64,000 nt of DNA, taken from contig CAZOES010000004.1 in NCBI GenBank assembly GCA_964578865.1, positions 12,362 to 76,361 of the forward strand, read 5' to 3'. Position 1 is the stretch's first letter; each line of letters starts with the position of its first letter. Made by a program: the position numbers and the translations under genes. Shown in pieces: positions 14,452-39,245 of the stretch. The DNA is from an uncultured Gemmatimonadaceae bacterium. Its GTDB lineage: Bacteria > Gemmatimonadota > Gemmatimonadetes > Gemmatimonadales > GWC2-71-9. The notes under the pieces were generated by a model that saw nothing but the letters and a program-made list of their open reading frames with translations, did no database searches and was not told the DNA's origin.

Positions 14452-14796
14452 TCAGCGCGCCCCCCGGAACATCAGCTCGACCAGCTCCTCGTACATCGCC
14501 TCGGCAGCTCCCGGCTCATCGGAACGGATGGCGCTGGCAGCGCAGTGTTGCAGGTGATTGCGGAGCAGCGACCGAGAGACCCCGCGCAAGGCTTCCTGCA
14601 CCGAGCTCACCTGGGTAATCACGTCGGTGCAATAGCGCTCCTCTTCCACCATCTTTTGCAGCCCGCGAATCTGGCCTTCGATCCGGCGCAACCGGGTCAG
14701 CACGCCGGCCTTGAGTTCGGGATCGACGGCGACGGCGTGGCGTTCACCGTCGTGGCCCACTCCGCAGGCGCAGGGGGAGATGTGGGGTTCAGACAT
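14452..14796 (-). CDS. csoR: CsoR/RcnR-family metal-sensing transcriptional repressor
   Basis: 114 aa. [28 protein letters not shown] and HLQHC give the Cys-His-Cys ligand pattern of Cu(I)-sensing CsoR. The ATG lies inside the last codons of copA (8-nt overlap). Confidence 0.85.
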
Positions 14797-17077
14797 TGGA
14801 CCTCGCCTGGGGAGACGGGAGACGGGAGAGGGAAGACGACTGCAAGGCCTTCCTTAACCTGAGACTGTTGCTGACGACGCTAACGCTGCTGAAGGCCATG
14901 GCACCTGCGGCGAACGCCGGGGTTAGCCGAAGGCCGAGGATGGGGTAAAGCACGCCCGCCGCAACCGGGATTCCGACCACGTTGTAAACGAAAGCCCAGA
15001 AGAGATTCTGGCGGATGATACCCATGGTTCGGCGGCTCAATGCGATTGCGTCGCGAACTCCCCGCAAGTCACCTCGCATGAGCGTGATCTGGCCGGCCTC
15101 CATCGCGACGTCAGTACCGGTGCCCATGGCAATTCCCACGTCGGCTTGAGCCAGCGCCGGGGCATCGTTGAGGCCGTCTCCGGCCATTGCGACGACTCGG
15201 CCGCCTTGCTGGAGCCGGCGCACTTCCGCCAGCTTGGAGTCGGGCAGTACTTCGGCGACGACCCGGTCTACTCCGACTTCCTTTCCGACCCGCTCCGCAG
15301 GGCCCTTCCGGTCTCCGGTCAGCATGACCACCTCGAGCCCCATGCTCTGGAGTGACGCGATTGCCCCGGCGCTGGTGGAGCGCACCGGGTCAGATACGGC
15401 GATGATTCCGGCCAGCTGATTGTCCTGGGAGATCCACACCAGAGTTGCTCCGCCCTGTTCCAACTCCTCGGCCCGGGTCGAAATCGTCTCGGGTACCGAA
15501 ACGCCGAGTGACTTCATCAGGCGCGGGTTTCCGACCGCCACTGAATGAGTGTCCACCGTGCCAGTCACCCCGTGACCGGGAATCGCCTTGAAGTCGGTGG
15601 GTTCGAGCAATGCTGCCCCACGTTCCCGAGCCGCCCGGATCAGGGCGTCCGCGATGGGGTGCTCGCTCAGGCGTTCGAGGGAGGCCGCAACTACCAAAAG
15701 GCGTTCCTCGTTCCTCGTTCCGGGTTCAGTGTTTTCAGGATTGGGAAGAACATCAGTGACCACCGGCTTGCCTTCAGTGATAGTTCCGGTCTTGTCGAGG
15801 ACCACGATTTGAGTCTCGCCCGCCTTCTGCAGGGCCGCGCCACCTTTGATCAGCACGCCGAGTTCGGCGCCCCGGCCGGTGCCGACCATGACGGCAGTGG
15901 GCACCGCCAGTCCCATGGCGCAGGGGCAGGCGATAATGAGAACTGTGACCGCAGCGACCAGAGCGTGCAGTGCGCGGGGCTCAGGTCCGAAGTTGAACCA
16001 GGCGACGAATGCCGCAATAGCGATAGAGATGACCACCGGCACAAAGACGGCCGAAACCCGATCGGCCAATTGCTGCACCGGGGCCCGAGATCCCTGAGCC
16101 TCCTGGACCATGCCGATGATCCGAGAAAGGACGGTGTCGCGCCCGACCCGGTTGGCCCGGATACGGATTGCACCGTTGCCGTTGACCGTGGCACCGATCA
16201 CCGCATCACCGGTGGAACGGGCCACCGGCAATGGCTCACCGGTCAGCATGGATTCGTCCACCGCGGTCGATCCTTCGAGGACGATTCCATCGACCGGGAT
16301 CCGCTCACCTGGACGAATGAGAACCTCGTCGCCCAGCACGACGTCGGAGAGCGGGATATCCTGCTCCTGGCCTCCCCGGCGAACCCGGGCAGTATCGGGC
16401 CGAAGTCCCATCAGCCGGCGAATGGCTCCGGAGACGTGAGCCTTGGCCCGGGTTTCGAAGTAGTTGCCTAACAGAACCAGCCCGATGATCCAGACCACCG
16501 CCTCGTAGTACACATCGGGGGGAAGGCCGTGGGTCAGAAACCAGCCGGGAGCAATCGTGGTGGCCAGGCTGAACAGCAAGGCCGCGCCAGTCCCGACCGC
16601 GATGAGGGTGTTCATCTCGGCGGAGTGATGACGGAAGGCGGCCCAGGCCCGAGTGTAGAAGTGTCGCCCGCCCCAAAGCACTACCGGGGCCGTCAGGAGC
16701 AGCATCAACCAGCGCATGGTTGCGCCGTGGGTCAGCAGAGACACCACCATCGTGCCGAGCCCGGCTGCGATGCTCCACACGGCCTTGCGGCGTACTTCCC
16801 GAAGCTCATCGGCCCGCGCCGCATCCCGCTCATCCAACTCCTCTTCCACCGATCGGCCGGTGCGAGGGAGTTCGGCTCCGTAGCCGGTGGCGTGAATGAC
16901 GTCGACCAGAGCCGACGGCGATGTGGCATCGGGGTTGAACCCGACCGTGGCCTTCTGGGTCATCAGGTTTACCCGGGCCTCGGTGACGCCCGGTGCCTGC
17001 TGAAGGGCCCGCTCCACCCGGGCGCTGCAGGCAGCGCAGGTCATGCCGATGACGTCGATGGTGGCTGATTCAGACAT
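14789..17077 (-). CDS. copA: copper-translocating P1B-type ATPase
   Basis: N-terminal [19 protein letters not shown] motif [13 protein letters not shown], phosphorylation site DKTGTITEG, hinge [10 protein letters not shown]. Confidence 0.93.
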
Positions 17078-17097
17078 GCGATTCTCGCACTTCTCCG

Positions 17098-17472
17098 CTA
17101 ACGAACGGTCAATCGGCCGTGAACCATTCCCATACCACAGGCGAACTCATGGGTGCCGGGTCTAGTCGGTGTGAATTCGACCGGAGTCACGACTCCAGTA
17201 GGGAGAAACCGCCTGACCCCGAAGTCGGGGATCACCACTTCTTCGGTGCAGCTTCCCGAGTCCTTTCGATCAAACAGCAGGCGTACCGGCCGGCCCTTTT
17301 CGACCGCGATGCTCGACGGGGCATAGCCGCCGTCAACCACGACAGAGATTTCCTGTATTCCGGTTCCGGCCGCCGCGATGACGGGTTTGCGGGAGGCGAG
17401 GAAGAAGTACCAGTTAACCCAGGCGATTGCGGTCACGCCTGCGATGGTCACCAGCACCTGCGAGGTATCCAT
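17098..17472 (-). CDS. membrane-anchored cupredoxin-domain protein
   Basis: 124 aa. N-terminal TM helix, then a small beta domain with candidate Cu ligands ([18 protein letters not shown]). This is a typical companion of copA/copZ operons. Confidence 0.65.
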
Positions 17473-17487
17473 GATTCGCCCCCTTAG

Positions 17488-17703
17488 TTAGCCAGCGATG
17501 AGGCCTTCGACCTTATAGCCGGCGCCCTCAATCGCGGCCTTCGCCCGGCTTCCGGCGGGATCGTCATCAGGAACTCGAACTTCGGCTCGGCCGATCTGCA
17601 CTGACCTCACCTCGATACCGGGAACAGCACCGAGCGCTTGGTTGACTGCATTCAGGCAGTGGCCGCAGCTCATGCCGCTAATTGCTAACGTAATGTCTTT
17701 CAT
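17488..17703 (-). CDS. copZ: heavy-metal-associated domain copper chaperone
   Basis: 71 aa with GMSCGHCLNAV (MxCxxC) in a ferredoxin-like fold. First gene of the copZ-cupredoxin-copA-csoR string. Confidence 0.85.
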   Translation of the reverse strand: MKDITLAISGMSCGHCLNAVNQALGAVPGIEVRSVQIGRAEVRVPDDDPAGSRAKAAIEGAGYKVEGLIAG

Positions 17704-17800: not shown

Positions 17801-17843
17801 TACCATAGGGTGGTGGGGTATACAAGTAGGGGGTGGGGGTATC
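17801..17843 (-). promoter_or_regulatory. candidate CsoR operator boxes in the copZ promoter
   Basis: Two adjacent G-tract boxes ending in GGGGTAT: TACCATAGGGTGGTGGGGTATAC (17801-17823) and GTAGGGGGTGGGGGTATC (17826-17843), about 100-140 nt upstream of copZ. The TACC..GGGGTAT pattern resembles characterised CsoR operators (recalled from B. subtilis, Streptomyces and M. tuberculosis). Confidence 0.45.
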
Positions 17844-17896
17844 TTGGATTTCTTCGGTCTGGTCAGGGGGCACGGAGACTGCTCCATTAGCCCCCC

Positions 17897-19510
17897 ATGG
17901 CCAAGGGCGATATGGACTTCCGCCAACTGATTCCGCTGCTGCACCCCCGGACGCGGGTCCACGATGTGGACGTGCTGAAGGCATGGTACGAGGCGGTGGC
18001 CGATGCCTTCCGTTACGAGCTGGCCACGGATCTACTGGCGCTCTGGCTTTACGGGCCGGAGGGCGAGCCGATCCTCATCGAGCCCGAGGCGCTGGCTGCC
18101 GACAATCTGGGAATCCCTCCAGCCGACCCGCTGGCCAATCAACTGATCCTCGACGAAGTCGAAGATCGGATCCGGCGAGCCGGGTACGGTTCAGTGTTGC
18201 TCCGTCCGGTGCGCCATGGCGGCCAGGACGTTGCCCTGATTCTTCTCGCCAGCTTCACGCCCCACATCTATGGTCTTCGAGCCGAGCATCTGATCGATTC
18301 GGCGATTGAAGTGATGGCGCCGATGCTGGCCCGGGTGACTCGCGCTGCGGGCGACGAAGTTCCAGCTGTGGTGGTGGCTCCCAGCGAAACCGACGTGGTG
18401 GTGCCCGGGGTCGAACGGGTACGAGATCAGGCCCGCGAAGGCGAACTCTTCGAGGGGCTCTCCGACGCCATCGGCGGAGCCGGTACTCCTCGTGACTTGA
18501 TGCTGGCACTTTCCTTTGCTCTGCAGCCGATTCTGCCACACGACTGTTACGAGCTGCTGATTCCTGACTCCACCGGTGAACGACTCTACCGTCTCGGCCT
18601 TCATGGCCACGGCACGCTGTGGGGTGACCCTGCGCTGGCAATCTCCCGTGGCTCGCTTGATCCGGCTCGACTGTTCGGAGACCGGGCCGGGTTCATTCTC
18701 GATGATGCATCGATCGCCGAAGATCTGACCATGCCGGAGTTGGTGACCGTGCGGGGTCCTGAAGTGCCACCTCGCTCACTGGTGGGTACGGTGCTGCGAG
18801 TGGTTGAGCGTCAGGTGGGATATCTGCTGCTGGGAAGCGCGGGCCCGGGGTTCTACCGGGCCGAGGATCTGGTGATGCTCGACCGGGTGGGTGCGATCCT
18901 CTCACCCAAGGTCGAGAGCCTGGTCCTGGCCTGGCAATACAGTGTGCTGCGGAGTCAATTCGACGTGCTCCGCCACGTGCCGATGCATCTGGCCAAGGTG
19001 GCCGAGCTGCTCGCGCTTACTCCGTTCCTTGGTGAAGGGAGCAAGCTCTTTGTGCAGCAGGCTGCGGCGGTGCTGCCGGTGAAGGCGCTGGAGTTCGCGG
19101 TCCGACTGAACGACGAGACTCGCGTTGCGGTGGTGCGGCCTGGGGCGGTGACTCCGTTGGCCGATCTTCCGCAGGAGCCGATCGACGGAACCGGGGTGGC
19201 CTCAGTGGTGCGCGGAGAAGTGCCCTACCTGCTCTCCAGTCAGGACGAGCCTACCGGAGCGCTGACGGTGCTGGTGGTTCCGCTCCGGGCCGGTGGTCGG
19301 GTCTTCGGCGCGATGGCCATGACCGCAGAGGGGGCATCCTCTTTCACTCGCACTGACATGGCCCTGGCTCAGCAGCTGGCCGACCTGGCGGCGCCCCATC
19401 TCGATCTGGCTCGACGCGGCGGTGGCCACGCGCCGGGTTTTGCGCCGGGATGGAAGCGGCCCAGCTGGCGGCCGGATGTAAGGAAGGAGACGGGGGAGGG
19501 GAAGGTGTAA
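17897..19510 (+). CDS. hypothetical protein, probable tandem GAF-like domains with no recognisable output domain
   Basis: 537-aa ORF with protein-like composition, divergent from copZ. Repeated segments of about 150 aa each end in a ...VLVVPLR.GGRVFGAM-like pattern typical of GAF folds. No kinase, cyclase or DNA-binding motif seen. Confidence 0.5.
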   Translation: MAKGDMDFRQLIPLLHPRTRVHDVDVLKAWYEAVADAFRYELATDLLALWLYGPEGEPILIEPEALAADNLGIPPADPLANQLILDEVEDRIRRAGYGSVLLRPVRHGGQDVALILLASFTPHIYGLRAEHLIDSAIEVMAPMLARVTRAAGDEVPAVVVAPSETDVVVPGVERVRDQAREGELFEGLSDAIGGAGTPRDLMLALSFALQPILPHDCYELLIPDSTGERLYRLGLHGHGTLWGDPALAISRGSLDPARLFGDRAGFILDDASIAEDLTMPELVTVRGPEVPPRSLVGTVLRVVERQVGYLLLGSAGPGFYRAEDLVMLDRVGAILSPKVESLVLAWQYSVLRSQFDVLRHVPMHLAKVAELLALTPFLGEGSKLFVQQAAAVLPVKALEFAVRLNDETRVAVVRPGAVTPLADLPQEPIDGTGVASVVRGEVPYLLSSQDEPTGALTVLVVPLRAGGRVFGAMAMTAEGASSFTRTDMALAQQLADLAAPHLDLARRGGGHAPGFAPGWKRPSWRPDVRKETGEGKV

Positions 19511-19573
19511 AAAGTGAAAAGTGAAAAGTGAAACGGTTGCTGGGTGCACTTTTCACGTTTCACGTTTCACGTT
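19510..19573. terminator. palindrome built from tandem heptamers (GTGAAAA x3 / TTTCACG x3) between convergent genes
   Basis: AAAAGTGAAAAGTGAAAAGTGAAACG ... GCACTTTTCACGTTTCACGTTTCACGTT. The arms pair with one A/C mismatch per heptamer and a loop of about 10 nt. It fills the whole 63-nt gap between the stops at 19510 and 19574. Confidence 0.6.
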
Positions 19574-20431
19574 CTAGCTTTTAACTCGAATCGAATCCGG
19601 ATGTACCGGCAGTGCTGTGGGATTTGAGGCCCGCGCCCACCTGAAGAAGATCACTCCAAAGGCAAACCAGATCGGCAGGTCTCCCACCAGCTTCATCAAC
19701 AATCCCGCAATCTGCTGGTCCTGCTGGGCCGTGAGGATGGGATAGACTCTCGGGGCCAGCTCATAGGTGGCGTAGAGCGGATACTCGGCGAAGGTGAGAA
19801 ACGCCGAGGGGATAATTGGTGGAAGGGTAGAGGCGAAGAGGTAGGCCATCTTCATCGGCCGGCGGAGCGCGATGAGCTCGGTCGGTGCCATGAGGGGCCA
19901 CCACAACGACAATCCCCCAATCAACCAGGCAAGGTCTACGGTAAAGGCGCCCAGCTGACTCGACATCAGTTGGTCGACGATGGTCGGGATGTGGGTGGCG
20001 AAGAGGGCGATGTTGAAGAGGGCGAAGCCGAACCAGGGCCGGGAGGCGAGTCGAAGAACCGGTCCTAGTCTGGGGCTGTGAATGGCCCGAAGCTGAACCG
20101 CTTCAGGTATCCCCAGAATCAGGCACGGAGGCGCAACCAGGGCCAGCAGGATGTAGCTGACGGTGTGGACGCTGACGAGATAGCCCGCACCGAGCGCGCC
20201 GATGGGCCAGTCGAGGGCAGCCCAGATGCAGGCGATTGCGAGGAGAAACCAGGCGGTTATGCGGTTAGGCGGCCAAGCGGCCAGGCGGCCAGAGGAATCG
20301 AGCTGACCGCCTTGCCGCCTTGCCGCCTTGAGATACCAGCCAAGCATCAGTGCAATAAGGAGCCAGACGCCGGGATACGCCTTCCAGCTCCAGGTCCAGA
20401 GAGCGCCGGTGGCGGAGCACCACCAGGTCAT
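19574..20431 (-). CDS. ctaG: cytochrome c oxidase assembly factor, CtaG (caa3-type, COG3336-like) membrane protein
   Basis: 285-aa polytopic protein. The Trp-rich N-terminus and conserved His/Pro in TM segments (HTVSYILLALVAPPCLILGIP, LWWPLMAP) fit my memory of the Caa3_CtaG family. ATGA overlap with pcuAC. Context supports the call. Confidence 0.6.
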   Translation of the reverse strand: MTWWCSATGALWTWSWKAYPGVWLLIALMLGWYLKAARRQGGQLDSSGRLAAWPPNRITAWFLLAIACIWAALDWPIGALGAGYLVSVHTVSYILLALVAPPCLILGIPEAVQLRAIHSPRLGPVLRLASRPWFGFALFNIALFATHIPTIVDQLMSSQLGAFTVDLAWLIGGLSLWWPLMAPTELIALRRPMKMAYLFASTLPPIIPSAFLTFAEYPLYATYELAPRVYPILTAQQDQQIAGLLMKLVGDLPIWFAFGVIFFRWARASNPTALPVHPDSIRVKS

Positions 20432-20859
20432 TGGCCGTACCGCCGTACCGGGAGCTGGAGGGTAACCGAACCGGCTTTGGCGAACCGGAGCGTTACGGTC
20501 AATGAATCGCCCGCCTTGGGAGCCGCGGTGAAATCAGTGATCATCAGGTGGGCGGCGCCGGGTTTGAGCTCGATCTCGCCGCCGGCAGGGATCTCGAGCG
20601 CATCGAGGTGGGCCATACTGCTGCCGTGAAATGCGGCTGCCCGGGCTGCCGGAGTGGAAACCTCGAGCACGGTATCCGGTGCGGTGCCGTTGTTGTGGAT
20701 CCGGAAATAGGCGGCGCCACTGGCATCGGTGATCGGCTCGAAAGCGAAGCCACTGTCGATCTTGATCTCACCCACGGTCGCGCTGGCGGTGGGAGGGATC
20801 GGCTTGCCGCAAGCCAGCCCACCGATCGCAAGAAGGGTCCAGCAGGTCCGGGCACTCAT
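20428..20859 (-). CDS. periplasmic copper chaperone PCu(A)C (DUF461)
   Basis: The ORF track start is 20895. The ATG at 20859 forms an ATGA overlap with the sco stop and gives the signal peptide MSARTCWTLLAIGGLAC. The H/M copper motif region is FHGSSMAHLDALEIPAGGEIELKPGAAHLMI. Confidence 0.85.
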   Translation of the reverse strand: MSARTCWTLLAIGGLACGKPIPPTASATVGEIKIDSGFAFEPITDASGAAYFRIHNNGTAPDTVLEVSTPAARAAAFHGSSMAHLDALEIPAGGEIELKPGAAHLMITDFTAAPKAGDSLTVTLRFAKAGSVTLQLPVRRYGQ

Positions 20860-21524
20860 GAGCGTTGCACCAGCAGAGTAAGATCCTTGCTCCAATCGGC
20901 CTGACGGATTCCGAAGGGATATACCACATGAGCCATGTTGTCGGTGCCGAAGGCGAGGACGATGGCCGCGTGTCCGATGTTGTACACGCTGGTGTCGGTG
21001 GTGTCCGGTCCGGCGGCTTCTCGCATCGTCTGCCCCAGACGTAGCTGGGTGAATGCCGAAGCAACCGAAGCGCTATCCCCGCGCAGGCCGATGAAGCGCT
21101 GATCGAAATGGTCCAGCCATTTTCGCATCACTTCGGGGGTATCCCGGGCCGGATCGACCGTCACGAACACCACCTTGATCTTGTTGGTGATCTCCGGCCC
21201 CAGTTTTTTCATGGCCCCGGCAATGTTGGCCATGTGGACCGGGCATACGTCGGGGCAATTGGTGTAGCCGAAGAAGAGGAGGGTGACGTAGCCGTCGGTC
21301 TCCTTCTGGAGATCGAACTGCTTGCCGTCGGTAGTGGTGAGTACCAGCCCTGGCTTCGGCAGCGGGGGCATGATCTGCGGGCCGGAAAGGCCTTCGCCGT
21401 TGAAGGGCTTAGGCGGCGCCGGTTTGCAGGCGGCGGCGAGGGTCAGCGTCAAGGCGAGCCCGGCGATCGGACGGGCGAGACGGGCGAGACGGGCGAGTAC
21501 AATGTGTAGCATCGTTCTTCTCAA
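20856..21524 (-). CDS. SCO-family (Sco1/SenC) thioredoxin-fold copper chaperone, lipoprotein
   Basis: FFGYTNCPDVCPVHM (CxxxC) plus a downstream His (YNIGHAA). Lipobox LTLAAAC. The TTG at 21524 overlaps the copD stop. An alternative ATG is at 21512. Confidence 0.88.
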   Translation of the reverse strand: MRRTMLHIVLARLARLARPIAGLALTLTLAAACKPAPPKPFNGEGLSGPQIMPPLPKPGLVLTTTDGKQFDLQKETDGYVTLLFFGYTNCPDVCPVHMANIAGAMKKLGPEITNKIKVVFVTVDPARDTPEVMRKWLDHFDQRFIGLRGDSASVASAFTQLRLGQTMREAAGPDTTDTSVYNIGHAAIVLAFGTDNMAHVVYPFGIRQADWSKDLTLLVQRS

Positions 21525-22447
21525 AGTTTCGGTGCGGGGAGGGCCACCAGCACCGCGGTCACGGCGACGAGTAAGACGGCGATTACCAGTTCAGCTGCAG
21601 CGGACTTCTTGAGTTCCCTGGTTCCTTCCGGCGACCCCAGCCTCAGGCGCACACTCTGCCAGTTCCAGGCGCCGATGCCGAGTGTGATTCCCAGCAAGGC
21701 GACTTTGACCAACAGGGCCTTTCCATAACTGGTACCCGTGAGCGAGGCGAAATCTCCCACGTAGGCGACTCCCATGACGGTGCCTGCCAGTACCGCGAGG
21801 CCGGCGCCCAGCAGAGCCGCAGGAGAGAACACCGCCACCATTTCGGTGACATCGGTTGCGTCCTCGTCGCGGGCGATGGTCAGGGCGGTCTTGAACATCG
21901 TAAACAAGGTACCCAGCCATATCCCCGCGCCGAGCAGGTGGATGGCGTGAAGACCGACCCCGAGGGCCGGACCCCAGGGGTGCTCGACCGCATGACCGGT
22001 AAGGGGCTGGGTGGCGGCAACTGCGAGTGTGGCAGTGGCGAGGAAGCTCAGTCCAGTGGCCGGGCGCCGGGGCGCGATCATGGCCAGCGGCACACTGATG
22101 AGTGCGGCGGCGACTTGAGCCATCCAGCCGCGTCCCCAGGCGGTCGCGAAGAGTATCGGCTTGGCGGCGTCCCAGGTAATTGGATCGGGATCGAGGAAGG
22201 AGCGCACCTGACCCAGTGCCCGGAGCAGATGAGCGCTGAGGAGGAGAACGGTCGCTCCGGCGGCCACCTTCCAAGTGCCCATGAGGGCGCGAGCGGCGAG
22301 ACTCTGATCATCGTCGCCGCTGCGGCGCCAGCGGGGCACCAGTACCGCGAAGGTGCAGGCACCAATGAGAATGAGTGCCGCGAGGTAGGCCAGACCGCGC
22401 GCCGCGGCATACAGATCAATGGGGAGTGGGAGATCGTCGTGATTCAT
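21521..22447 (-). CDS. copD: CopD-family copper transport membrane protein
   Basis: 308-aa protein with about 8 TM segments. LHAIHLLGAGIWLGTLF is typical of CopD. ATGA overlap with the upstream hydrolase stop. Confidence 0.75.
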   Translation of the reverse strand: MNHDDLPLPIDLYAAARGLAYLAALILIGACTFAVLVPRWRRSGDDDQSLAARALMGTWKVAAGATVLLLSAHLLRALGQVRSFLDPDPITWDAAKPILFATAWGRGWMAQVAAALISVPLAMIAPRRPATGLSFLATATLAVAATQPLTGHAVEHPWGPALGVGLHAIHLLGAGIWLGTLFTMFKTALTIARDEDATDVTEMVAVFSPAALLGAGLAVLAGTVMGVAYVGDFASLTGTSYGKALLVKVALLGITLGIGAWNWQSVRLRLGSPEGTRELKKSAAAELVIAVLLVAVTAVLVALPAPKL

Positions 22448-24252
22448 TGGCCGACCGGGACGACAGGCAGGATGATCCGCGATCCCGGGTGATGGATGGT
22501 AATCGTGCCGGCGCGAGTGCGACTGCTGTCGATCTCCGAGGCACCGGTCTGGAGGTTCCGGGAGAACCAGGGGGCAAAGGCGCTGGAAACAGTCACCCGA
22601 ATTCGGTGGCCGGCAAGAAACCGGTTGGCTGTCACCATGCGGTTCATCCTCAGGGTTACCCGGGATCCAGGCATCACCAACGACCGGGCCGGGCCGCCCT
22701 CACGATAACTCGCCCGCATCAGAGCGGTACCCCAGCTCGAGAGATTCCAGGCCGTTCCATCTGGTTCCACGTCGTACAACTGAACCCAGAGGTCGAAATC
22801 CCGGACCGTGGCGGAGGCTTCCAGCTCGGTGACCACGTTGCCGATAATTTCGACTGGCTGGGCTAGGGGACCGGTCTCGAAGACCAGCAGGTCGCTTCGG
22901 CCCACCAGGCTCTTGTAGTCGTGTGCGCCCGGCGTGCCGTTGTAGGGATCAGTGAGCGGCCTGGCCGGATCGGAATGGAAGCGGCTGCGGCCGACGGCGC
23001 GGGAACGCCGCAGCAGTTGGCCAACTCCTGACGGCGGGTTGGCAGCGACCAATCGCAGCGTGTCCGGGCGTTGTCCCGCGGGGGGCCAGCCCCGCAGATA
23101 GTTCCAGCGATCGGCGCCCATGACGTAAACTCGGAGCGGAGGGTTGGAGCTGTCACTCTCCGACTTGATGAACCGATCGAGCCAATTGAGCACGGTGGCA
23201 TCGTAATCGATGGCCGCGTCAGGGCTGAAAGTGCGATCGCCGGCCTGGTTCCTGCGCGTGGCGCCGACACCGTGCACCCAGGGGCCGATGATCAGGCCGG
23301 TCCGATTGCGGGCTCCGCTCGCCACCAGTCCGTTGAAGTTGTCGATCGCTCCCGCAGGACCATACGGCTCATCGTACCAACCGGAGAGATTCAGCACGCC
23401 GGCCGACACTCCACGGTAGGTCCCGCTCAACTCAGCCCAGCTCCACCAGGGGTCTTGCGGTGGATGTTGCATCCACTGGTAGTACCATGGGGCGATGGTC
23501 TTGAAATCGGGGAGCGAGCTGAGCGGGAACGACCGCAACCTCGTCATCGCAGTATCCGCCACCGAGGCGGCGAGATCTCCGGTACGGGGTCCGGGTTGAT
23601 CGAGCTTGACCCGGAGATCAGGGGCGATGTTGTACCAGACCCAGTCGAGCCACGAGCCATCCCATACTCCACCGGAATACCAGAACGACTCCGGGGTGGA
23701 GAAGGTCATCGCCGGGACCATCGCCTTGAGCGAGGGCGGATTCTCCCTGGCCGCGAGCCACTGCACCGCGCCAGGATAAGAGAGGCCAAAGGTCCCCACT
23801 TTTCCGCTGGACCAGGGCTGATGCGCGGCCCATTCGATCACGTCGTAGCCGTCTGCTCCTTCCTGGCGGTACGGCTCAAAGGTTCCTGCCGAGCGATAGC
23901 GGCCGCGGACATCGACCAGCAACACGGCGTAGCCCCGCGCCAGGGCAGCCTGAACCAGGGTGGGAGTTTCGCTGCGATCATAGGGTGTGCGATAGATCAG
24001 AACCGGTCGGGGACCGGGAGACCGGGGGCGCCAGAGGTCGGCACTCAACACAACGCCGTCCCGCAGGGGGACGGCGAGGTTGGAATCGATCTGCGCTTCC
24101 GGTGTCTGAGCGTTCAGACCAGCGGGGCCCAGCAACAGCCCAATCAGCAGACCCGCGCACCGGCGACCAACGAGGGTGAACCTCACCTCACGGCTTGGGA
24201 GCGGCCGCCGGATCGTACTTGAAGGTGTACTTGCCGCGGACCGCGTGCCCAT
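22444..24252 (-). CDS. CocE/NonD-family (peptidase S15-like) serine hydrolase, exported
   Basis: Nucleophile elbow VGTFGLSYPGAVQW. The C-terminal PepX_C-like signature is HRIRVTVSSAFAPWFSRNLQTG. The ATG at 24252 overlaps copC by 65 nt. An alternative GTG at 24186 lies just after the copC stop codon (24188-24190, one intervening base at 24187) and gives VRFTLVGRRCAGLLIGLLLGPAGLNAQ. Confidence 0.8.
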   Translation of the reverse strand: MGTRSAASTPSSTIRRPLPSREVRFTLVGRRCAGLLIGLLLGPAGLNAQTPEAQIDSNLAVPLRDGVVLSADLWRPRSPGPRPVLIYRTPYDRSETPTLVQAALARGYAVLLVDVRGRYRSAGTFEPYRQEGADGYDVIEWAAHQPWSSGKVGTFGLSYPGAVQWLAARENPPSLKAMVPAMTFSTPESFWYSGGVWDGSWLDWVWYNIAPDLRVKLDQPGPRTGDLAASVADTAMTRLRSFPLSSLPDFKTIAPWYYQWMQHPPQDPWWSWAELSGTYRGVSAGVLNLSGWYDEPYGPAGAIDNFNGLVASGARNRTGLIIGPWVHGVGATRRNQAGDRTFSPDAAIDYDATVLNWLDRFIKSESDSSNPPLRVYVMGADRWNYLRGWPPAGQRPDTLRLVAANPPSGVGQLLRRSRAVGRSRFHSDPARPLTDPYNGTPGAHDYKSLVGRSDLLVFETGPLAQPVEIIGNVVTELEASATVRDFDLWVQLYDVEPDGTAWNLSSWGTALMRASYREGGPARSLVMPGSRVTLRMNRMVTANRFLAGHRIRVTVSSAFAPWFSRNLQTGASEIDSSRTRAGTITIHHPGSRIILPVVPVGQ

Positions 24253-24568
24253 CCTTCGAGCCGGTGCGCCACACGACCTGGTAGCTGCCGGCTTCCAGCG
24301 CGACCGGAATGTTGCCGGCCACCGAGAGGCTATCGTCGGTGGCAGCCATCTTTACGGTGGTCACCGGCGAGTTGTCCGCCTTAAGCAATGTCGCGCCGGA
24401 AAGCGCCGCTTCCGGCTCTTCGTTGAACCAGAGCCGAATCTGCCGGGGAGCCACGGCCACAGTGGAATCAACACCCGGTTCAGCCTTCACGAGGTGGGTA
24501 TGAACGGCAGCATCAGCGCCCAGCAGTGAGCCGGCGGCGATGGTGGTAAGAATCAGAGTGCGAAGCAT
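24188..24568 (-). CDS. copC: CopC-domain periplasmic copper-binding protein
   Basis: 126 aa. Signal peptide, then the predicted mature N-terminus HTHLVKAEPG and SKDGHAVRGKYTFKY. This is the His-rich Cu(II) site pattern of CopC, with no Met-rich Cu(I) loop seen. Confidence 0.85.
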   Translation of the reverse strand: MLRTLILTTIAAGSLLGADAAVHTHLVKAEPGVDSTVAVAPRQIRLWFNEEPEAALSGATLLKADNSPVTTVKMAATDDSLSVAGNIPVALEAGSYQVVWRTGSKDGHAVRGKYTFKYDPAAAPKP

Positions 24569-24590
24569 GTTGCTTACTCGGTTCGGGTTT

Positions 24591-24626
24591 AGACGGTCAA
24601 GACGGTCGAGTCGGTCGAGACGGTCA
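24591..24626. repeat. 4 x 9-bp tandem repeat (AGACGGTCA AGACGGTCG AGTCGGTCG AGACGGTCA) in the copC leader/promoter
   Basis: Read directly. It lies 23-58 nt upstream of the copC ATG (24568) in the 82-nt gap after the BNR gene stop (24651). Confidence 0.9.
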
Positions 24627-24650
24627 TGAAAAGTTAATGGTGCTGCTGCC

Positions 24651-25949
24651 CTACTGCTTCAACTCAATACGCGCGAGACCCAGCCGCTGTTTATCGCCCA
24701 CCAGCTGGGTCCAGGCCATGGCGGCTCCACCGGTTCTGGTCCGAGCCAGCTGGGGGTAAGTGGAGCCATCAGACCCCTTTAGCTCAACACGGCTGGCCCT
24801 GGTGGCACCAACCGGCACGTGGGCCAGATTAATAAGCCGGTTTCCCTTCTGATTCACATCCCAGGCTACCACTGAACTGCCGTCATCCAGCGAAGTCACC
24901 GCTGGGTGGGCAGTCTGCAGGTGATCACCAGTGAGAAGGGCCAACGGCTGGTCGGCGAACGCCAACTTTCCAGTGCCGCGAGTCAGGTAGACCCCGGCTC
25001 CACCGGGGCGACCGGTGAACCAGGCGACATGGGGAGCTCCGCTCCGGTCCATCGAGAGCGACGGGCCGCTGTGGGGACAACCGGGATAGACCCAGTTGTC
25101 TTCCCGCACCCGGGTGGGTTCGGCCAGCGAATCCCTCACTTCCGACACCACGATGTCGCGGACGTTGCCGGGATAGTGTTTGCGCCAGGCAGCCAGCGCA
25201 CTCCCGTCAGCTGCACGTGCCAGCGTGACTCGGCAACAGGGGCAGACGGCGCCCCAAAGCGGACGATTGGCCGACCAAGTCGCCCCGAAGTCCGCCGAGC
25301 TTACGCTGTAGATGGTCGCATCGGATTCGTCGGTCATGTCGTGCTGGTGAGGATCGCTTCCAGCCGGCATTTCATGAACTCCGCCGGCCCGCTCGTCCAG
25401 CCACGCAGCCACCACCCCCGAGTCACCGACCCAGGCCGCACCCTGGAAGGTGTGACCAATCAGGGTTCCGGTGGTGTCGTCGTTGATGGTGACCGGGGCG
25501 CTCCAGCTATTGCCGCCATCGAGCGAACGGGCAAACCGCATCCGGTTGGCAGGCCACTTACGGCCTTCGACGTTGATGTTCTGGGGCCAGACCAGCCCGA
25601 TGCGACCGGCGGGCCCGGCGACGAGACGGGGAGACGCCTCGCCGTGGGGATGCACTTCGCCGGGATCGCTGGTGACTGCAACCGGCTTACTCCAATCCTT
25701 ACCGTCATCGGTCGAGCGACTGAAGTAGAGCTGCCAGCCGGTCGAGTCGCTGCCTCCGACGAAGCTGAGCAGCAGATCGCCGGTGGCCGGATCGACGACC
25801 AGTGCCGGATCGGCGGCGTTGGGCATCGAGTCGGCCGGCGTTGAGGCGAGCTTCTCGATGCTGGGCCCGCTCGGGCTGCATGCAGAGATCGCAACCGCAA
25901 AACACAGATTACCCAGATTGAAAAGCAGATTTTTGATGTTGTTTTTCAT
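24651..25949 (-). CDS. BNR/Asp-box repeat beta-propeller lipoprotein (sialidase-like fold, function unknown)
   Basis: Lipobox AVAISAC. Asp-boxes SRSTDDGKDWS, ARSLDGGNSWS and SSADFGATWS. Unusual Cys motifs AVCPCCRVTL and YPGCPHSGPS. Starts 6 nt after the TonB receptor stop. Confidence 0.7.
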   Translation of the reverse strand: MKNNIKNLLFNLGNLCFAVAISACSPSGPSIEKLASTPADSMPNAADPALVVDPATGDLLLSFVGGSDSTGWQLYFSRSTDDGKDWSKPVAVTSDPGEVHPHGEASPRLVAGPAGRIGLVWPQNINVEGRKWPANRMRFARSLDGGNSWSAPVTINDDTTGTLIGHTFQGAAWVGDSGVVAAWLDERAGGVHEMPAGSDPHQHDMTDESDATIYSVSSADFGATWSANRPLWGAVCPCCRVTLARAADGSALAAWRKHYPGNVRDIVVSEVRDSLAEPTRVREDNWVYPGCPHSGPSLSMDRSGAPHVAWFTGRPGGAGVYLTRGTGKLAFADQPLALLTGDHLQTAHPAVTSLDDGSSVVAWDVNQKGNRLINLAHVPVGATRASRVELKGSDGSTYPQLARTRTGGAAMAWTQLVGDKQRLGLARIELKQ

Positions 25950-25955: not shown

Positions 25956-28268
25956 CTATCTAGTCCAGCGGTACTGGGCGCCGAGGAAGAACGAGCGCGG
26001 CAGACCGGGGGTGAACCGCTCCTGCTGGGCCGGCGCGACGAAGGGATTGAAGCTGGCACTGTTGGCGTAACGGGTGTTGCCCAGATTGTTGACCCGTCCC
26101 ACCAGATCGAATCCGCGGATCACCGGCTGAGTGAAATACAGATTGAACAGATCGTGCCCGCCGTAGGTGTGGGCGTTCTCCGGATCGGTGAAGTACCCGC
26201 CCAGGTGCTGCCACTCCACTGCAATGCTCCCCCGCTGGAAGGGAGTCACCACGAACCGAGTATTGGCGATGTGCTTGGGCGCCGACTCGATCTCATTGCC
26301 GCTGTAGTCGGTTCCGGTCGCCGTGACCCACTCCAGATATTTGTGCTCAGCGTAGGTGTACGCTGCCTCGAGTCGCGCGAAATCGGTGAGCCCAAAGGAG
26401 GCACCAACCTCAATGCCCCGGTGGCGAGTCCGACCGGCATTGGAAGTCTGGGAGCTGAAATCGGTGGTATTGAAGAACGAGAGGATGTCGTCCTTTACCG
26501 ACATGGTGTAGGCCGAAAGCTCGAGCGACACCCGGTCGGATGCCCGGGCCCGAACCCCGGTTTCGTAACTGTTGGCCCGAACCGGATCGAGATCGACGGT
26601 GTTGTCAGCTGATCCCTGGCGGAAGAGCTGATCCTCCGAAGGAACCCGGAAGCTGTGGCGGTAGGACGCGAAGGCGCTGACGCTGGGACTCAGCTCCACG
26701 GCCATTCCCAGCTTGGGGCTGACGTGATCGTACCAGACCGTGGTCGACGCCGGGCGACGATGATTGCCGGTCTGCAGGACACTCAACTGGTTGTCGTAGT
26801 TGTAGCCCAGCCGGTCATAGCGAAGTCCGCCGGTCACCCGAACCCGCGACACCGGTGAGAACTCCGCCTGCAGGTAGGGAGAAATGCTCCGGAAGGTGAC
26901 ATCGTAATCGTAGATCCGGGCCGAGCGGGTGAAGTCGGTAAAGGCTGATCCGCTGGTGACCGGTGTGATCGAATCGCTCTGGTGAGTTCCCGGGCTCAGG
27001 TCGAGATCGAGACCGCCGGTGATACGAGTCCGGAAGGGCGCGAAATCCTTGCGACCCTGGAACATCATGCCCACCGAGTAATTCTGAATCTTCCAGACTT
27101 CCGGGTCATAGGTGAGCTGCCACGAAGGAAGCAGTTCGAGCCGGTCGTAGCGGGCGTATCCGGTGACGCTGAAGCGCGAGCTCTCGCCGACCTTCTCCAG
27201 CCCGGTCGACCAGCGCGCGGCGCGCACCTTCCGAAACGCGATCGGGGTGTAGTTGATCTGCGGGTCGTTCTCGTAATCCGAGCGGCTCACATCGGATCCG
27301 CCGTCGCCCGGTGAATTGATGTTGGAGAATGCCAGCACGGTCTTGAGACGTGCATTGCTGCCGACTGCGCGATCCCAGCGCAGGTTGGCGCTCTCGCGCT
27401 CCTGTTCGGTGCCGTCGCGGTAACCGTCGTAGTGGGTGACGTTGAGATCGGCCCGAAGTCCATTGGCGCCGAAGGTGTTGCTGGCCGAGACCAACGAACG
27501 CTTGTAGCCGTACCGGCCACCCTCGGCAAACAGCTCGACGCTCGGTGTGGCACTGGGTGCCCGGGTCAACACGTTGACCACTCCGCCAATCGCATCGCTG
27601 CCATACAGAGCCGAAGCGGGCCCCTTGAAGACCTCGACCCGTTCGGCGCCGGGAATGTTCACTTCGTACATCGCGTTGTGATTGAAGAAACCGGTCGAGC
27701 GGATCGGGATGCCGTCTTCGAGGTAGGCGTAGACCGGCTTATAGTTGATCGGCTGGCGGAGGGCCATGGTGTTGCCCTCTCCACCCAGATCGACCACCAG
27801 CGCTCCGGGGACCTGGCTCATCAATTCGGCCGGGTGATGGGGGCGGGTCTGGTCGATCGACGTCCGATCCACCACAGCGACAGTCGCTGCGACTTCGGCC
27901 CGCTTCTCTTCTTCCCGGGTGGCGGTGACTACCACATCGGTCATGACTATTGGAGTCTCCTTGAGCGCCACGTCCACGGTGGCCTGACCGTCGGCGGGCA
28001 GGGCGACGTTGCGGCGCTCCGAGGTTCTCCGAATGCCACTGAAGATCACCACCCGCTCTCCCGACGGCACCGCGATGAGGCGCCAGGTTCCCCGAGGTGA
28101 GGTGGTGGTGACCAGCAGACTTCCCTCAATCGAAACTCGAATCCCTTCGAGCGGCTGTCCGGTGACCGCATCGGTGACCGTGCCGTTGAGCATGCCGCTT
28201 CCCTGGGCGGCGAGCTGCGCGGCCGTTCCCAGCCCGAGGGCCAGGAGCAGCGCCAGAATTCGCTTCAT
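25956..28268 (-). CDS. TonB-dependent outer-membrane receptor with N-terminal carboxypeptidase-regulatory-like domain
   Basis: The ORF track start is 28388. The ATG at 28268 has a strong SD (GGAGAGGAAATCATG) and signal peptide MKRILALLLALGLGTAAQLAAQ. CarboxypepD_reg-like segment LNGTVTDAVTGQPLEGIRV. Plug motif VEVFKGPASALYGSDAIGGVVNV. Long barrel. Confidence 0.9.
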   Translation of the reverse strand: MKRILALLLALGLGTAAQLAAQGSGMLNGTVTDAVTGQPLEGIRVSIEGSLLVTTTSPRGTWRLIAVPSGERVVIFSGIRRTSERRNVALPADGQATVDVALKETPIVMTDVVVTATREEEKRAEVAATVAVVDRTSIDQTRPHHPAELMSQVPGALVVDLGGEGNTMALRQPINYKPVYAYLEDGIPIRSTGFFNHNAMYEVNIPGAERVEVFKGPASALYGSDAIGGVVNVLTRAPSATPSVELFAEGGRYGYKRSLVSASNTFGANGLRADLNVTHYDGYRDGTEQERESANLRWDRAVGSNARLKTVLAFSNINSPGDGGSDVSRSDYENDPQINYTPIAFRKVRAARWSTGLEKVGESSRFSVTGYARYDRLELLPSWQLTYDPEVWKIQNYSVGMMFQGRKDFAPFRTRITGGLDLDLSPGTHQSDSITPVTSGSAFTDFTRSARIYDYDVTFRSISPYLQAEFSPVSRVRVTGGLRYDRLGYNYDNQLSVLQTGNHRRPASTTVWYDHVSPKLGMAVELSPSVSAFASYRHSFRVPSEDQLFRQGSADNTVDLDPVRANSYETGVRARASDRVSLELSAYTMSVKDDILSFFNTTDFSSQTSNAGRTRHRGIEVGASFGLTDFARLEAAYTYAEHKYLEWVTATGTDYSGNEIESAPKHIANTRFVVTPFQRGSIAVEWQHLGGYFTDPENAHTYGGHDLFNLYFTQPVIRGFDLVGRVNNLGNTRYANSASFNPFVAPAQQERFTPGLPRSFFLGAQYRWTR

Positions 28269-28443
28269 GATTTCCTCTCCAAGTGTCCGAAGCCGTGGTG
28301 ACTGATGCGGGCTCGGGCCGCCGGATGCGCCACGCGCCGGGAGCCCTGAAGGACTTCCTCGCCCCGGGTCGCGTTTCGCGCTCCCCAAGGGGCTCGGTCG
28401 CCAGAGACTCGATCGTCAGTGCCTGAGTTGTACTGGGGTTACT

Positions 28444-39244: not shown

Positions 39245-39245
39245 T

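What the first reader, a model, noticed from the sequence alone, without database searches (positions are those of the whole stretch)
19574..24568. Six translationally coupled genes: copC, CocE/NonD serine hydrolase, copD, sco, pcuAC, ctaG
Seen: consecutive junctions are 4-nt overlaps: 22444-22447 ATGA, 21521-24 TTGA (or ATG at 21512), 20856-59 ATGA, 20428-31 ATGA. The hydrolase either overlaps copC (ATG at 24252) or starts at GTG 24186, directly after the copC stop codon at 24188-24190. Established: CopC/CopD, Sco, PCu(A)C and CtaG are periplasmic and membrane copper-handling factors that feed cytochrome oxidase. CopC and CopD are normally adjacent or fused. Unexplained: an exported S15/CocE-NonD-type hydrolase, apparently intact (GLSYPG nucleophile elbow and PepX_C-like end), is wedged between copC and copD. 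Inference: it may be a dedicated enzyme that releases copper from an imported organic or peptide ligand, or one that processes a partner protein. I know of no described role for this family in copper trafficking.
Basis: partly seen in the sequence, partly recalled or inferred. Interest (0 to 1): 0.65.

Follow-up and report, generated by a model that had tools for sequence, protein, structure and literature searches.

The report
Serine hydrolase inside a copper-delivery operon
In some Gemmatimonadales soil bacteria an intact, exported serine hydrolase gene sits between the copper-uptake genes copC and copD; relatives have kept it there for a long time, yet others have deleted or moved it, so it is an optional helper of unknown substrate, not a core part of copper delivery.

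Summary
On the minus strand, copC, a CocE/NonD (S15) hydrolase, copD, sco, pcuAC and caa3-type ctaG follow each other. Three junctions are ATGA overlaps; the other two are spacers of 1 and 8 nt (or a TTGA overlap). The unit probably starts further upstream, with a TonB-dependent receptor and a Cys-rich BNR lipoprotein.

The hydrolase is intact. It has the Ser136/Asp272/His305 triad, a CocE-like predicted fold (TM 0.82) and a signal peptide read by eye.

The copC-hydrolase-copD order recurs in at least four divergent Gemmatimonadales clades: 11 of 43 Gemmatimonadota genome loci and 0 of 37 from other phyla. It is facultative:
- Most related operons have copC directly next to copD.
- Three close relatives carry deletion scars of the hydrolase.
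- A 70%-identical ortholog stands alone elsewhere in its genome.
- Operon-linked hydrolases never form a clade (0 of 100 bootstraps).
- No residue distinguishes linked from unlinked copies.

I found no literature precedent.

Best reading (0.4): an accessory periplasmic hydrolase recruited to copper supply, perhaps freeing Cu(II) from peptide-like ligands. Main rival (0.35): a nutritional peptidase riding the operon.

One lead is unexplained. Every CopC in this clade has V/L/M/F/Y directly before its copper-binding N-terminal His, which signal peptidase should not cut.

The parts
25956..28388 (-). TonB-dependent receptor (CarboxypepD_reg + Plug + beta-barrel), probable first gene of the unit
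   Evidence: Pfam. The same gene lies upstream of the BNR gene and copC in L001 (91% identity). Divergent TonB-dependent receptors lie near the operon in several other clades, with or without the hydrolase.
24651..25949 (-). BNR_2 (Asp-box beta-propeller) predicted lipoprotein with invariant CxCC and GCP cysteine motifs
   Evidence: Pfam BNR_2. C236, C238, C239 and C291 are invariant in 8 homologs down to 24% identity. A homolog occurs in 7 of 14 hydrolase-bearing loci and in 0 of 21 hydrolase-less copC-copD loci that have at least 1.5 kb upstream.
24586..24629 (.). Four to five tandem 9-nt units (GACCGTCTC-like on the minus strand) in the 82-nt spacer between the BNR gene and copC
   Evidence: the repeat finder. 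Relatives L088 and L090 carry a different short tandem repeat, (CTTGTCGC)n, at the same place.
24188..24568 (-). copC: periplasmic Cu(II)-binding protein, with His23 and Asp106-x-His108 matching the known ligands
   Evidence: Pfam CopC, 74.6 bits. His23, D106 and H108 are invariant in relatives. The ligand set His1/Asp83/His85 of PfCopC comes from PMC7529816. The residue before His23 is Val.
22444..24186 (-). CocE/NonD (peptidase S15) serine hydrolase, 580 aa from GTG 24186, with a predicted Sec signal peptide
   Evidence: Pfam Peptidase_S15 184 bits and PepX_C 108 bits. TIGR00976 319.9 bits against a cut-off of 66.3. Triad S136/D272/H305 and Tyr69/Tyr137 align with CocE S117/D259/H287 and Y44/Y118 and are invariant in 42 homologs. 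AlphaFold model pLDDT 84.5, TM 0.82 to CocE.
21521..22447 (-). copD: inner-membrane copper transporter-like protein; its start overlaps the hydrolase stop (ATGA)
   Evidence: Pfam CopD; sequence.
20856..21512 (-). sco (SCO1/SenC thioredoxin-fold copper chaperone, CPDVC motif)
   Evidence: Pfam SCO1-SenC, 110 bits. CxxxC is seen in the translation. The motif definition is from PMC9145763.
20428..20859 (-). pcuAC: periplasmic CuA chaperone, predicted lipoprotein (…GGLAC)
   Evidence: Pfam PCuAC, 86.8 bits. ATGA overlaps on both sides.
19574..20431 (-). caa3-type ctaG (CuB-centre assembly factor), last gene of the unit
   Evidence: Pfam Caa3_CtaG, 143 bits.
19507..19576 (.). AT-rich 26-nt inverted repeat built of GTGAAA(A/C) heptamers, between the convergent ctaG and GAF genes; probable two-way terminator
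   Evidence: the repeat finder. Its function is inferred.
17897..19510 (+). GAF-domain protein, convergent with ctaG; a conserved neighbour of the operon with or without the hydrolase
   Evidence: Pfam GAF. Present in most related loci.
14789..17703 (-). copZ-like HMA protein (17488-17703), cupredoxin-like protein (17098-17472) and CopA P-type ATPase (14789-17077): the adjacent copper-export module
   Evidence: Pfam Cupredoxin_1. GMSCGHC motif in the 71-aa ORF. CopA identified from its translation and from the matching module in relatives.

Best explanation
The region is a Gemmatimonadales operon for copper acquisition and for building the copper centres of cytochrome c oxidase. Its order is TonB-dependent receptor, BNR lipoprotein, CopC, S15 hydrolase, CopD, Sco, PCuAC, Caa3-CtaG.

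The hydrolase is an active-looking, exported CocE/NonD serine hydrolase. An ancestor of crown Gemmatimonadales captured it between copC and copD, from a lineage that is otherwise a stand-alone periplasmic enzyme of soil bacteria. Several clades have kept it there with tight junctions, and others have dropped or moved it.

I read it as a facultative accessory enzyme of copper supply. Being made together with CopC in the periplasm, it most likely hydrolyses peptide- or amino-acid-ester-type molecules that hold Cu(II), possibly brought in by the upstream receptor, so that CopC can take the metal and pass it to CopD, Sco and PCuAC.

Shown: the gene order, its conservation and its losses, the intact catalytic residues, and the fold. 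Inferred: export, co-translation, the link to copper, and the substrate.
For: 1. **Same insertion point in divergent clades.**
   - The window clade, with hydrolases 82-100% identical: L001-L003 and L087.
   - L004/L005.
   - L015/17/18/20/23.
   - L006/19/27/30/36/39/93/101/104/112.
   - L028.
   - Between clades CopD is only 55-63% identical.
2. **Tight junctions throughout.** The copC stop is 1-8 nt from the hydrolase start. The hydrolase and copD overlap by 4 nt or lie 16-54 nt apart.
3. **Enzyme under constraint.** The triad, the oxyanion tyrosines and about 150 other positions are invariant in 42 homologs. The model is confident and CocE-like.
4. **Other members of the fold act on amino-group-bearing substrates.** Solved relatives include amino-acid ester hydrolases, an aminopeptidase (4pf1) and X-prolyl dipeptidyl aminopeptidases.
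5. **Co-occurrence with the BNR lipoprotein.** A homolog is present in 7 of 14 hydrolase-bearing loci and 0 of 21 hydrolase-less loci. In L088 and L090 both the receptor-BNR pair and the hydrolase are missing relative to L001.
6. **Design precedent** (own knowledge): periplasmic alpha/beta-hydrolases encoded next to TonB-dependent receptors release iron from siderophores (PfeE, IroE).
Against: - **Often absent.** In the CopD-anchored metagenome sample, 36 operons have copC directly before copD and only 6 carry the hydrolase.
- **Deleted in close relatives.** L088 keeps only the N- and C-terminal ends of the hydrolase in a 186-nt gap. L090 keeps a 46-nt remnant. L089 has a 5.3-kb unrelated insertion plus a C-terminal remnant. 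L097, without a hydrolase, is nested inside a hydrolase-bearing clade.
- **Moved.** L007 is 70% identical, groups with the window clade in 96 of 100 bootstraps, and stands alone among unrelated genes.
- **No specialisation.** Linked hydrolases are monophyletic in 0 of 100 bootstraps, and no alignment column separates linked from unlinked copies.
- **Homologs elsewhere have no copper neighbours**. Some follow an amino-acid permease. A 31%-identical paralog in this window sits beside an amino-acid permease and an M20 peptidase. This points to a general peptide-degrading role.
- **The BNR correlation rests on few independent events.** One hydrolase-bearing clade lacks the BNR gene.
- **No chalkophore biosynthesis genes** were seen among the window genes I scanned.
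Confidence: 0.4

Rival explanations
1. Passenger. The hydrolase is a general periplasmic peptidase or esterase used for nutrition. It landed between copC and copD and persists only because it gets expressed there. It has no role in copper handling.
For: - Repeated deletion and relocation.
- Linked copies are never a clade and have no distinguishing residues.
- Close homologs (49-70% identical) in 69 of 80 genome loci lie in unrelated contexts. Some follow an amino-acid permease.
- A paralog in this window sits beside an amino-acid permease and an M20 peptidase.
- The same copC-copD junction accepted an unrelated RiPP-like cassette in L089, so it tolerates insertions.
Against: - The gene kept exactly the same position, with coupled junctions, in at least four clades whose CopD is only 55-63% identical. 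Functionally unrelated operon members rarely last that long (general knowledge).
- Both sides of the deepest split in the Gemmatimonadales hydrolase tree contain operon-linked members. This implies long retention rather than a recent accident.
- It co-occurs with the BNR lipoprotein.
Confidence: 0.35
2. Partner maturation. The hydrolase is an exopeptidase that trims the short N-terminal extension left on CopC after signal-peptide removal. This would expose His23 as residue 1, so that the free amino group and the imidazole can form the Cu(II) histidine brace.
For: - In all 35 distinct CopC N-termini of this clade, the residue directly before the conserved His is V, L, M, F or Y (18, 7, 7, 2, 1), never A, G or S.
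- By the -3/-1 rule, the nearest permissible signal-peptidase site leaves 1-4 residues in 32 of 35.
- The brace ligands are conserved: His, Asp-x-His, and an acidic residue at the position of Glu27.
- The hydrolase gene starts 1 nt after the copC stop.
- Relatives of known structure include an aminopeptidase and dipeptidyl aminopeptidases.
- Two acidic residues absent from CocE, D176 and E273, are invariant beside the catalytic residues in sequence.
Against: - The odd N-terminus is just as present in the operons that lack the hydrolase. It does not track the gene in cis, so the idea needs an unlinked copy in those genomes, which I could not check.
- A stepwise aminopeptidase would not explain why the last residue is always hydrophobic.
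- The enzyme is closest to the esterase CocE, not to the peptidases.
- CopC may instead keep an uncleaved anchor or use an X-X-His site.
- The -3/-1 rule was applied by hand, without a trained predictor.
Confidence: 0.1

Closest known systems
CopC/CopD-Sco-PCuAC-CtaG copper supply routes for heme-copper oxidases (B. subtilis YcnJ/Sco/CtaG; C. glutamicum copC-pcuAC operon; E. coli yobA-yebZ-yebY; Streptomyces lividans sco operon)
   Same: It has the same protein families and the same logic. A periplasmic Cu(II)-binding CopC works with a CopD membrane protein, and Sco and PCuAC serve CuA while Caa3_CtaG serves CuB (PMC13344008, PMC9145763, PMC8689200, PMC3603459). copC and copD are adjacent or fused in these systems and in most relatives sampled here.
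   Different: An S15 serine hydrolase is inserted between copC and copD. A TonB-dependent receptor and a Cys-rich BNR lipoprotein lead the unit. None of the papers I searched mentions a hydrolase or protease in such an operon.
CocE/NonD family, peptidase S15 (cocaine esterase CocE, alpha-amino acid ester hydrolases, archaeal aminopeptidase 4pf1, PepX)
   Same: It shares the alpha/beta-hydrolase domain, helical cap and PepX_C jelly-roll, the Ser-Asp-His triad, and two tyrosines at the oxyanion hole. The predicted fold has TM 0.82 to CocE and 0.72-0.75 to AEH and 4pf1.
   Different: It is about 30% identical to CocE and 21-22% to AEH and 4pf1 over the structural alignments. It is exported. It has invariant D176 and E273 where CocE has Ser and Gly. 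The substrate is unknown, and no characterised member is linked to metal trafficking.
Periplasmic siderophore esterases encoded beside TonB-dependent receptors (PfeE, IroE; own knowledge)
   Same: The design is similar: outer-membrane receptor, then a periplasmic alpha/beta-hydrolase, then a periplasmic metal-binding protein and an inner-membrane transporter.
   Different: These esterases belong to a different hydrolase family and act on iron, not copper. No ligand or ligand-biosynthesis genes were identified here, and the receptor is not always present with the hydrolase. This is a functional analogy only.

Membership tests
CocE/NonD hydrolase family (Pfam Peptidase_S15 + PepX_C; TIGR00976) | Matches to the family models above the curated cut-offs | tested here: met
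   PF02129 184 bits (cut-off 23) and PF08530 108.3 bits (cut-off 22.5). TIGR00976 319.9 bits (cut-off 66.3).
CocE/NonD hydrolase family (Pfam Peptidase_S15 + PepX_C; TIGR00976) | Ser-Asp-His catalytic triad, with the nucleophile in a GxSxG elbow, and oxyanion-hole tyrosines | tested here: met
   S136 (in GLSYPG), D272, H305, Y69 and Y137 align with CocE S117, D259, H287, Y44 and Y118 (the CocE residue roles are from my own knowledge, and PDB titles name the S117A and Y44F mutants). All are invariant in 42 homologs.
CocE/NonD hydrolase family (Pfam Peptidase_S15 + PepX_C; TIGR00976) | Three-domain fold (alpha/beta, helical cap, jelly-roll) | tested here: met
   AlphaFold2 model pLDDT 84.5, pTM 0.86. 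Foldseek top hits are CocE, TM 0.82-0.83, E 3e-48.
CocE/NonD hydrolase family (Pfam Peptidase_S15 + PepX_C; TIGR00976) | Hydrolytic activity on an ester or peptide substrate | not testable with these tools
   This needs enzymology.
CopC (histidine-brace Cu(II) protein) | CopC domain match and the Cu(II) ligands His1, Asp-x-His | tested here: met
   PF04234 74.6 bits. H23, D106 and H108 are invariant. The ligand set is from PMC7529816. The NCBIfam equivalog score, 80.3, is below its cut-off of 95, so this is a divergent member.
CopC (histidine-brace Cu(II) protein) | The brace His is the first residue after a canonical signal-peptidase site (small residue at -1) | tested here: not met
   Val precedes His23. 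In 35 of 35 distinct relatives the residue is V, L, M, F or Y. The rule was applied by hand, and the mature N-terminus is unknown.
CopD | CopD domain match and position next to copC | tested here: met
   PF05425 58.1 bits (cut-off 32.1). The NCBIfam equivalog score is below its cut-off (95.5 against 195). It is directly adjacent to copC in 36 related operons and separated only by the hydrolase here.
Sco / PCuAC / Caa3_CtaG oxidase-assembly factors | Family model matches; the CxxxC motif in Sco | tested here: met
   PF02630 110 bits, PF04314 86.8 bits and PF09678 143.3 bits. CPDVC is in the Sco translation. Motif definitions are from PMC9145763.
Metallophore-hydrolase uptake module (receptor + periplasmic esterase, as PfeA/PfeE) | Hydrolase consistently paired with a cognate TonB-dependent receptor and a known ligand | tested here: inconclusive
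   A receptor lies upstream in the window, L001, L004 and L028. Receptors near other operons are only 24-31% identical and occur with or without the hydrolase. No ligand is known.

The most novel reading that the evidence does not exclude
The S15 hydrolase is the missing maturation protease of this clade's CopC. Signal peptidase should not be able to cut directly before the brace histidine, because V, L, M, F or Y sits at -1 in 35 of 35 sequences. It would therefore leave a 1-4-residue pro-peptide. The hydrolase, encoded 1 nt downstream or as a stand-alone ortholog elsewhere, would remove it and switch on Cu(II) binding. This would be the first proteolytically activated bacterial copper chaperone.
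Probability: 0.08. Interest if true: 0.8.

Novelty: new variant of a known kind. Interest (0 to 1): 0.5.

Why it matters
Copper import and hand-over to respiratory oxidases is one of the less understood parts of bacterial metal biology. How CopC and CopD obtain copper in the environment is open. A hydrolase that several lineages keep translationally coupled between copC and copD suggests that, in soil Gemmatimonadales, copper may need enzymatic release from organic ligands, or that CopC itself needs processing.

Both ideas can be tested directly with one recombinant enzyme and a few peptides.

The comparative data also give natural knock-outs: relatives with deletion scars. They point to two further uncharacterised players, a four-cysteine BNR lipoprotein and a CopC N-terminus that should not be cleavable by signal peptidase.

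If the hydrolase turns out to be a passenger, the case is still a clear example of an operon junction that repeatedly gains and loses cargo.

Tried and rejected
1. **Does the odd CopC N-terminus track the hydrolase?** It does not. CopCs directly followed by copD have the same hydrophobic residue before the His. The trimming idea lost its best possible support and was demoted to a low-probability rival.
2. **Do linked hydrolases form a specialised subfamily?** They do not. There are no discriminating columns, and they are monophyletic in 0 of 100 NJ bootstraps.
3. **Does the arrangement occur outside Gemmatimonadota?** It appears in none of the 37 loci from Acidobacteriota, Proteobacteria and other phyla.
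4. **Do the neighbourhoods of unlinked homologs hint at a substrate?** They are heterogeneous. My reading by eye, confirmed by Pfam only where noted, found Ada/AlkB-like genes (Pfam), an amino-acid permease (Pfam), and ProC-, MogA- and helicase-like genes.
5. **Is the ATG at 24252 the hydrolase start?** I rejected it in favour of GTG 24186.
6. **Is the signal peptide a Tat signal (the RR in GRRCAG)?** I rejected this, because relatives lack the RR.
7. **Literature.** Searches for CocE/NonD or S15 with CopC/CopD, for Gemmatimonadetes with CopC, and for BNR with TonB and copper found nothing relevant. The CopC family paper PMC5260838 is not held.
8. **Source genome.** An exact look-up of the window's hydrolase found no record, and the cluster carries no name.

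Full report
**1. What is there**

The window has about 63% G+C. Its closest protein relatives are labelled Gemmatimonadales.

Pfam identifies the following on the minus strand:
- a TonB-dependent receptor (25956-28388)
- a BNR_2 protein (24651-25949)
- CopC (24188-24568)
- a Peptidase_S15 + PepX_C hydrolase (22444-24252 as the longest ORF)
- CopD (21521-22447)
- SCO1/SenC (20856-21524)
- PCuAC (20428-20895)
- Caa3_CtaG (19574-20431)

NCBIfam calls the hydrolase a CocE/NonD family hydrolase, at 319.9 bits against a cut-off of 66.3.

A GAF-domain gene (17897-19510, plus strand) converges on ctaG. Beyond it lie a copZ-like gene (17488-17703), a cupredoxin-like gene (17098-17472) and a CopA ATPase gene (14789-17077).

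**2. The junctions**

Read from the sequence:
- ATGA overlaps join hydrolase/copD (22447-22444), sco/pcuAC (20859-20856) and pcuAC/ctaG (20431-20428).
- copD ends at TGA 21523-21521. sco starts at TTG 21524 or, more likely, at ATG 21512, as in relative L001.
- copC ends at TGA 24190-24188. The hydrolase starts at GTG 24186. This start gives the 580-aa product found 100% identical in the database, matches the gene calls in relatives, and yields a plausible Sec signal peptide (MRFTLVGRRCAGLLIGLLLGPAGLNA|Q, my reading).

The receptor and the BNR gene are 6 nt apart. The BNR gene and copC are 82 nt apart. Simple scans find no promoter- or terminator-like excess inside the unit. A 26-nt AT-rich inverted repeat follows ctaG.

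**3. The hydrolase is intact and typical of its family**

- phmmer against PDB sequences puts cocaine esterase first (E 1e-64), followed by alpha-amino acid ester hydrolases and an S15 peptidase.
- In that alignment S136, D272, H305, Y69 and Y137 fall on CocE S117, D259, H287, Y44 and Y118.
- All five residues, and about 150 further positions, are invariant in an alignment of 42 homologs that are 57-82% identical.
- An AlphaFold2 model built on that alignment has mean pLDDT 84.5 and pTM 0.86.
- The model matches CocE structures with TM 0.82, amino-acid ester hydrolases and the archaeal aminopeptidase 4pf1 with TM 0.72-0.75, and PepX more distantly.
- D176 and E273 are invariant in the family and lie next to catalytic elements in the sequence. 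They correspond to Ser and Gly in CocE. I could not test whether they face the active site.

**4. Is the position conserved? Yes, but it is facultative**

*Presence.* Context look-ups for three homologs (82%, 63% and 58% identical) all showed CopC, hydrolase, CopD, Sco, PCuAC and CtaG in that order (CtaG is cut by the contig end in L001-L003). A GAF gene follows in the two more distant relatives, L004/L005 and L006.

A scan of one genome per species returned 80 loci. I annotated them with profile searches built from the window's proteins:
- 11 loci have the copC-hydrolase-copD arrangement, and all are labelled Gemmatimonadales or Gemmatimonadota. They are L015, 17, 18, 19, 20, 23, 27, 28, 30, 36 and 39; L028 ends right after the hydrolase.
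- The other 32 Gemmatimonadota loci have the hydrolase elsewhere.
- So do all 37 loci from Acidobacteriota, Gammaproteobacteria and other phyla.

*Absence.* A CopD-anchored metagenome scan gave the view from the other side:
- Six loci carry the hydrolase upstream of copD (L087, 93, 101, 104, 105, 112).
- 36 have copC directly before copD. In the deeper-branching ones the stop and start codons overlap.
- One locus, L089, has something else in between.

On a CopD tree the hydrolase-bearing operons form several clades inside one crown group. The deeper branches lack the hydrolase.

**5. Losses and moves are directly visible**

- **L088.** The 186-nt gap between copC and copD still encodes the hydrolase start and signal peptide (…AAQTLPEPRIDSGLAVP…) joined to its end (…SRLILPVVAVAP*).
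- **L090.** Only 46 nt remain, a mini-ORF made of the start and the …LPV… end.
- **L089.** A 5.3-kb block has replaced the gene, leaving a C-terminal remnant (…ITVHHLAPRLTLPVVPD). The block encodes PqqD, an asparagine-synthase homolog, an NTP_transf_5 protein and one more protein.
- **L097.** This locus lacks the hydrolase yet is nested within a hydrolase-bearing clade.
- **L007.** Its hydrolase is 70% identical to the window's. It groups with the window clade in 96 of 100 bootstraps, and it sits alone among unrelated genes.

In 100 NJ bootstraps the Gemmatimonadales hydrolases were always one clade. The operon-linked ones were never a clade, and neither were the unlinked ones. No alignment column separates linked from unlinked copies.

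The simplest history is one capture early in crown Gemmatimonadales, followed by several deletions and relocations. Repeated insertion at the identical junction is the less likely alternative.

**6. What the family does elsewhere**

Unlinked homologs have varied, non-copper neighbours. In three Terriglobales or related loci the gene follows an amino-acid permease on the same strand.

The window itself holds a second S15/PepX_C paralog (37139-39307, 31% identical). It lies in a row with an amino-acid permease and an M20 peptidase. This fits a general periplasmic peptide- or ester-degrading activity.

**7. Leads towards a copper-related role**

*(a) The BNR lipoprotein.* Upstream of copC is a predicted lipoprotein with Asp-box repeats. 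It has four cysteines (CxCC and GCP) that are invariant down to 24% identity. It matches sialidase structures only weakly, over the repeats.

A homolog lies in 7 of 14 hydrolase-bearing loci with enough upstream sequence, and in none of 21 hydrolase-less copC-copD loci. Compared with L001, loci L088 and L090 lack both the receptor-BNR pair and the hydrolase. Few independent events underlie this pattern, one hydrolase-bearing clade has no BNR gene, and L146 pairs the BNR gene with a CopD-like gene without either copC or the hydrolase.

*(b) The CopC N-terminus.* CopC binds Cu(II) through the amino group and side chain of its first residue, a histidine, together with an Asp-x-His pair (PMC7529816; PMC10952591). 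Those ligands are conserved here.

The residue before the histidine is V, L, M, F or Y in all 35 distinct sequences of this clade. By the -3/-1 rule, which I applied by hand, the nearest acceptable signal-peptidase site leaves 1-4 extra residues in 32 of them. An exopeptidase encoded 1 nt downstream is an obvious candidate to remove them.

However, the feature is equally present where the hydrolase is absent from the operon. It gives no discriminating support unless those genomes carry a stand-alone ortholog, which I could not test.

**8. Comparison with what is known**

CopC/CopD with Sco, PCuAC and CtaG-type factors supply copper to heme-copper oxidases. The supporting sources are:
- B. subtilis YcnJ (PMC13344008).
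- A review of the assembly factors, which also notes the C. glutamicum copC-pcuAC operon (PMC9145763).
- The E. coli AZY operon (PMC8689200).
- The Streptomyces sco operon (PMC3603459).

None of the retrieved papers places a serine hydrolase in such an operon.

The closest functional analogy, from my own knowledge, is the periplasmic siderophore esterase encoded next to its TonB-dependent receptor. That is an analogy of design, not of family membership.

**9. Verdict**

The finding is real, and the arrangement is conserved enough to suggest a functional tie. The enzyme is an optional, unspecialised member of a widespread hydrolase lineage, not a dedicated copper factor.

| Reading | Probability |
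|---|---|
| Accessory role in copper supply, ligand hydrolysis most likely | 0.4 |
| Passenger with no copper role | 0.35 |
| Maturation of CopC | 0.1 |
| Something not considered | remainder |

It is a new variant of a known kind of system, and its interest is moderate.

Noticed in passing
window 24188-24568 (CopC N-terminus, residues 1-23), and CopC genes of L001-L137: In all 35 distinct CopC sequences of this clade, V, L, M, F or Y directly precedes the copper-binding histidine, whether or not the operon has the hydrolase. Signal peptidase I should not cut there. The nearest permissible site would leave 1-4 residues, often giving an X-X-His (ATCUN-like) end.
   Followed up: partly
window 24651-25949 (-): BNR_2/Asp-box predicted lipoprotein with four invariant cysteines (CxCC at 236-239, GCP at 290-292). 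It lies between a TonB-dependent receptor and copC. It co-occurs with hydrolase-bearing operons (7 of 14 against 0 of 21). In L146 it is paired directly with a CopD-like gene. It is a candidate uncharacterised copper-binding protein.
   Followed up: partly
window 37139-42058 (-): A second S15/PepX_C paralog (722 aa, 31% identical to the operon copy) lies in a row with an amino-acid permease and an M20 peptidase. This is a peptide-utilisation setting for the same enzyme family in the same genome.
   Followed up: partly
L089 644-5994: A 5.3-kb block lies between copC and copD, where the hydrolase lies in relatives. It encodes PqqD, an asparagine-synthase homolog, an NTP_transf_5 protein and an unassigned 319-aa protein, a set that resembles lasso-peptide (RiPP) biosynthesis genes. 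A C-terminal remnant of the hydrolase lies at its end.
   Followed up: partly
L088 5816-6000; L090 2680-2724: Deletion scars of the hydrolase. L088 keeps the start, the signal peptide and the last dozen or so codons. L090 keeps a 14-codon mini-ORF. Both loci also lack the receptor-BNR pair, and a PhzF-like gene directly precedes copC.
   Followed up: yes
window 24586-24629; L088 about 5350-5400; L090 about 2170-2240: Short tandem repeats lie in the spacer upstream of copC. The window has four to five 9-nt units (GACCGTCTC-like). L088 and L090 have five to eight copies of CTTGTCGC. The unit and the copy number differ between close relatives.
   Followed up: no
100-130 nt upstream of copC in L006, L017, L018, L020, L030, L036, L094, L097: A conserved TGTTAGAATTCC element (it resembles an extended -10 promoter) is followed by a conserved hairpin, CCGCCGG…CCGGCGG, in the copC leader. 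It occurs in clades both with and without the hydrolase. It is not present in the window.
   Followed up: no
window 19507-19576: A 26-nt AT-rich inverted repeat made of GTGAAA(A/C) heptamers lies between the convergent ctaG and GAF genes. It stands out in a 63% G+C genome and is probably a two-way terminator.
   Followed up: no
window 14789-19510: The GAF-domain protein (no DNA-binding domain found) and the copZ-like, cupredoxin-like and CopA ATPase genes form a conserved neighbour block of the operon in most relatives. The role of the GAF protein is unknown.
   Followed up: no
L105 1466-2391: The copD gene is split into two overlapping ORFs in this hydrolase-bearing metagenome contig. This is either a frameshift or an assembly error.
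   Followed up: no
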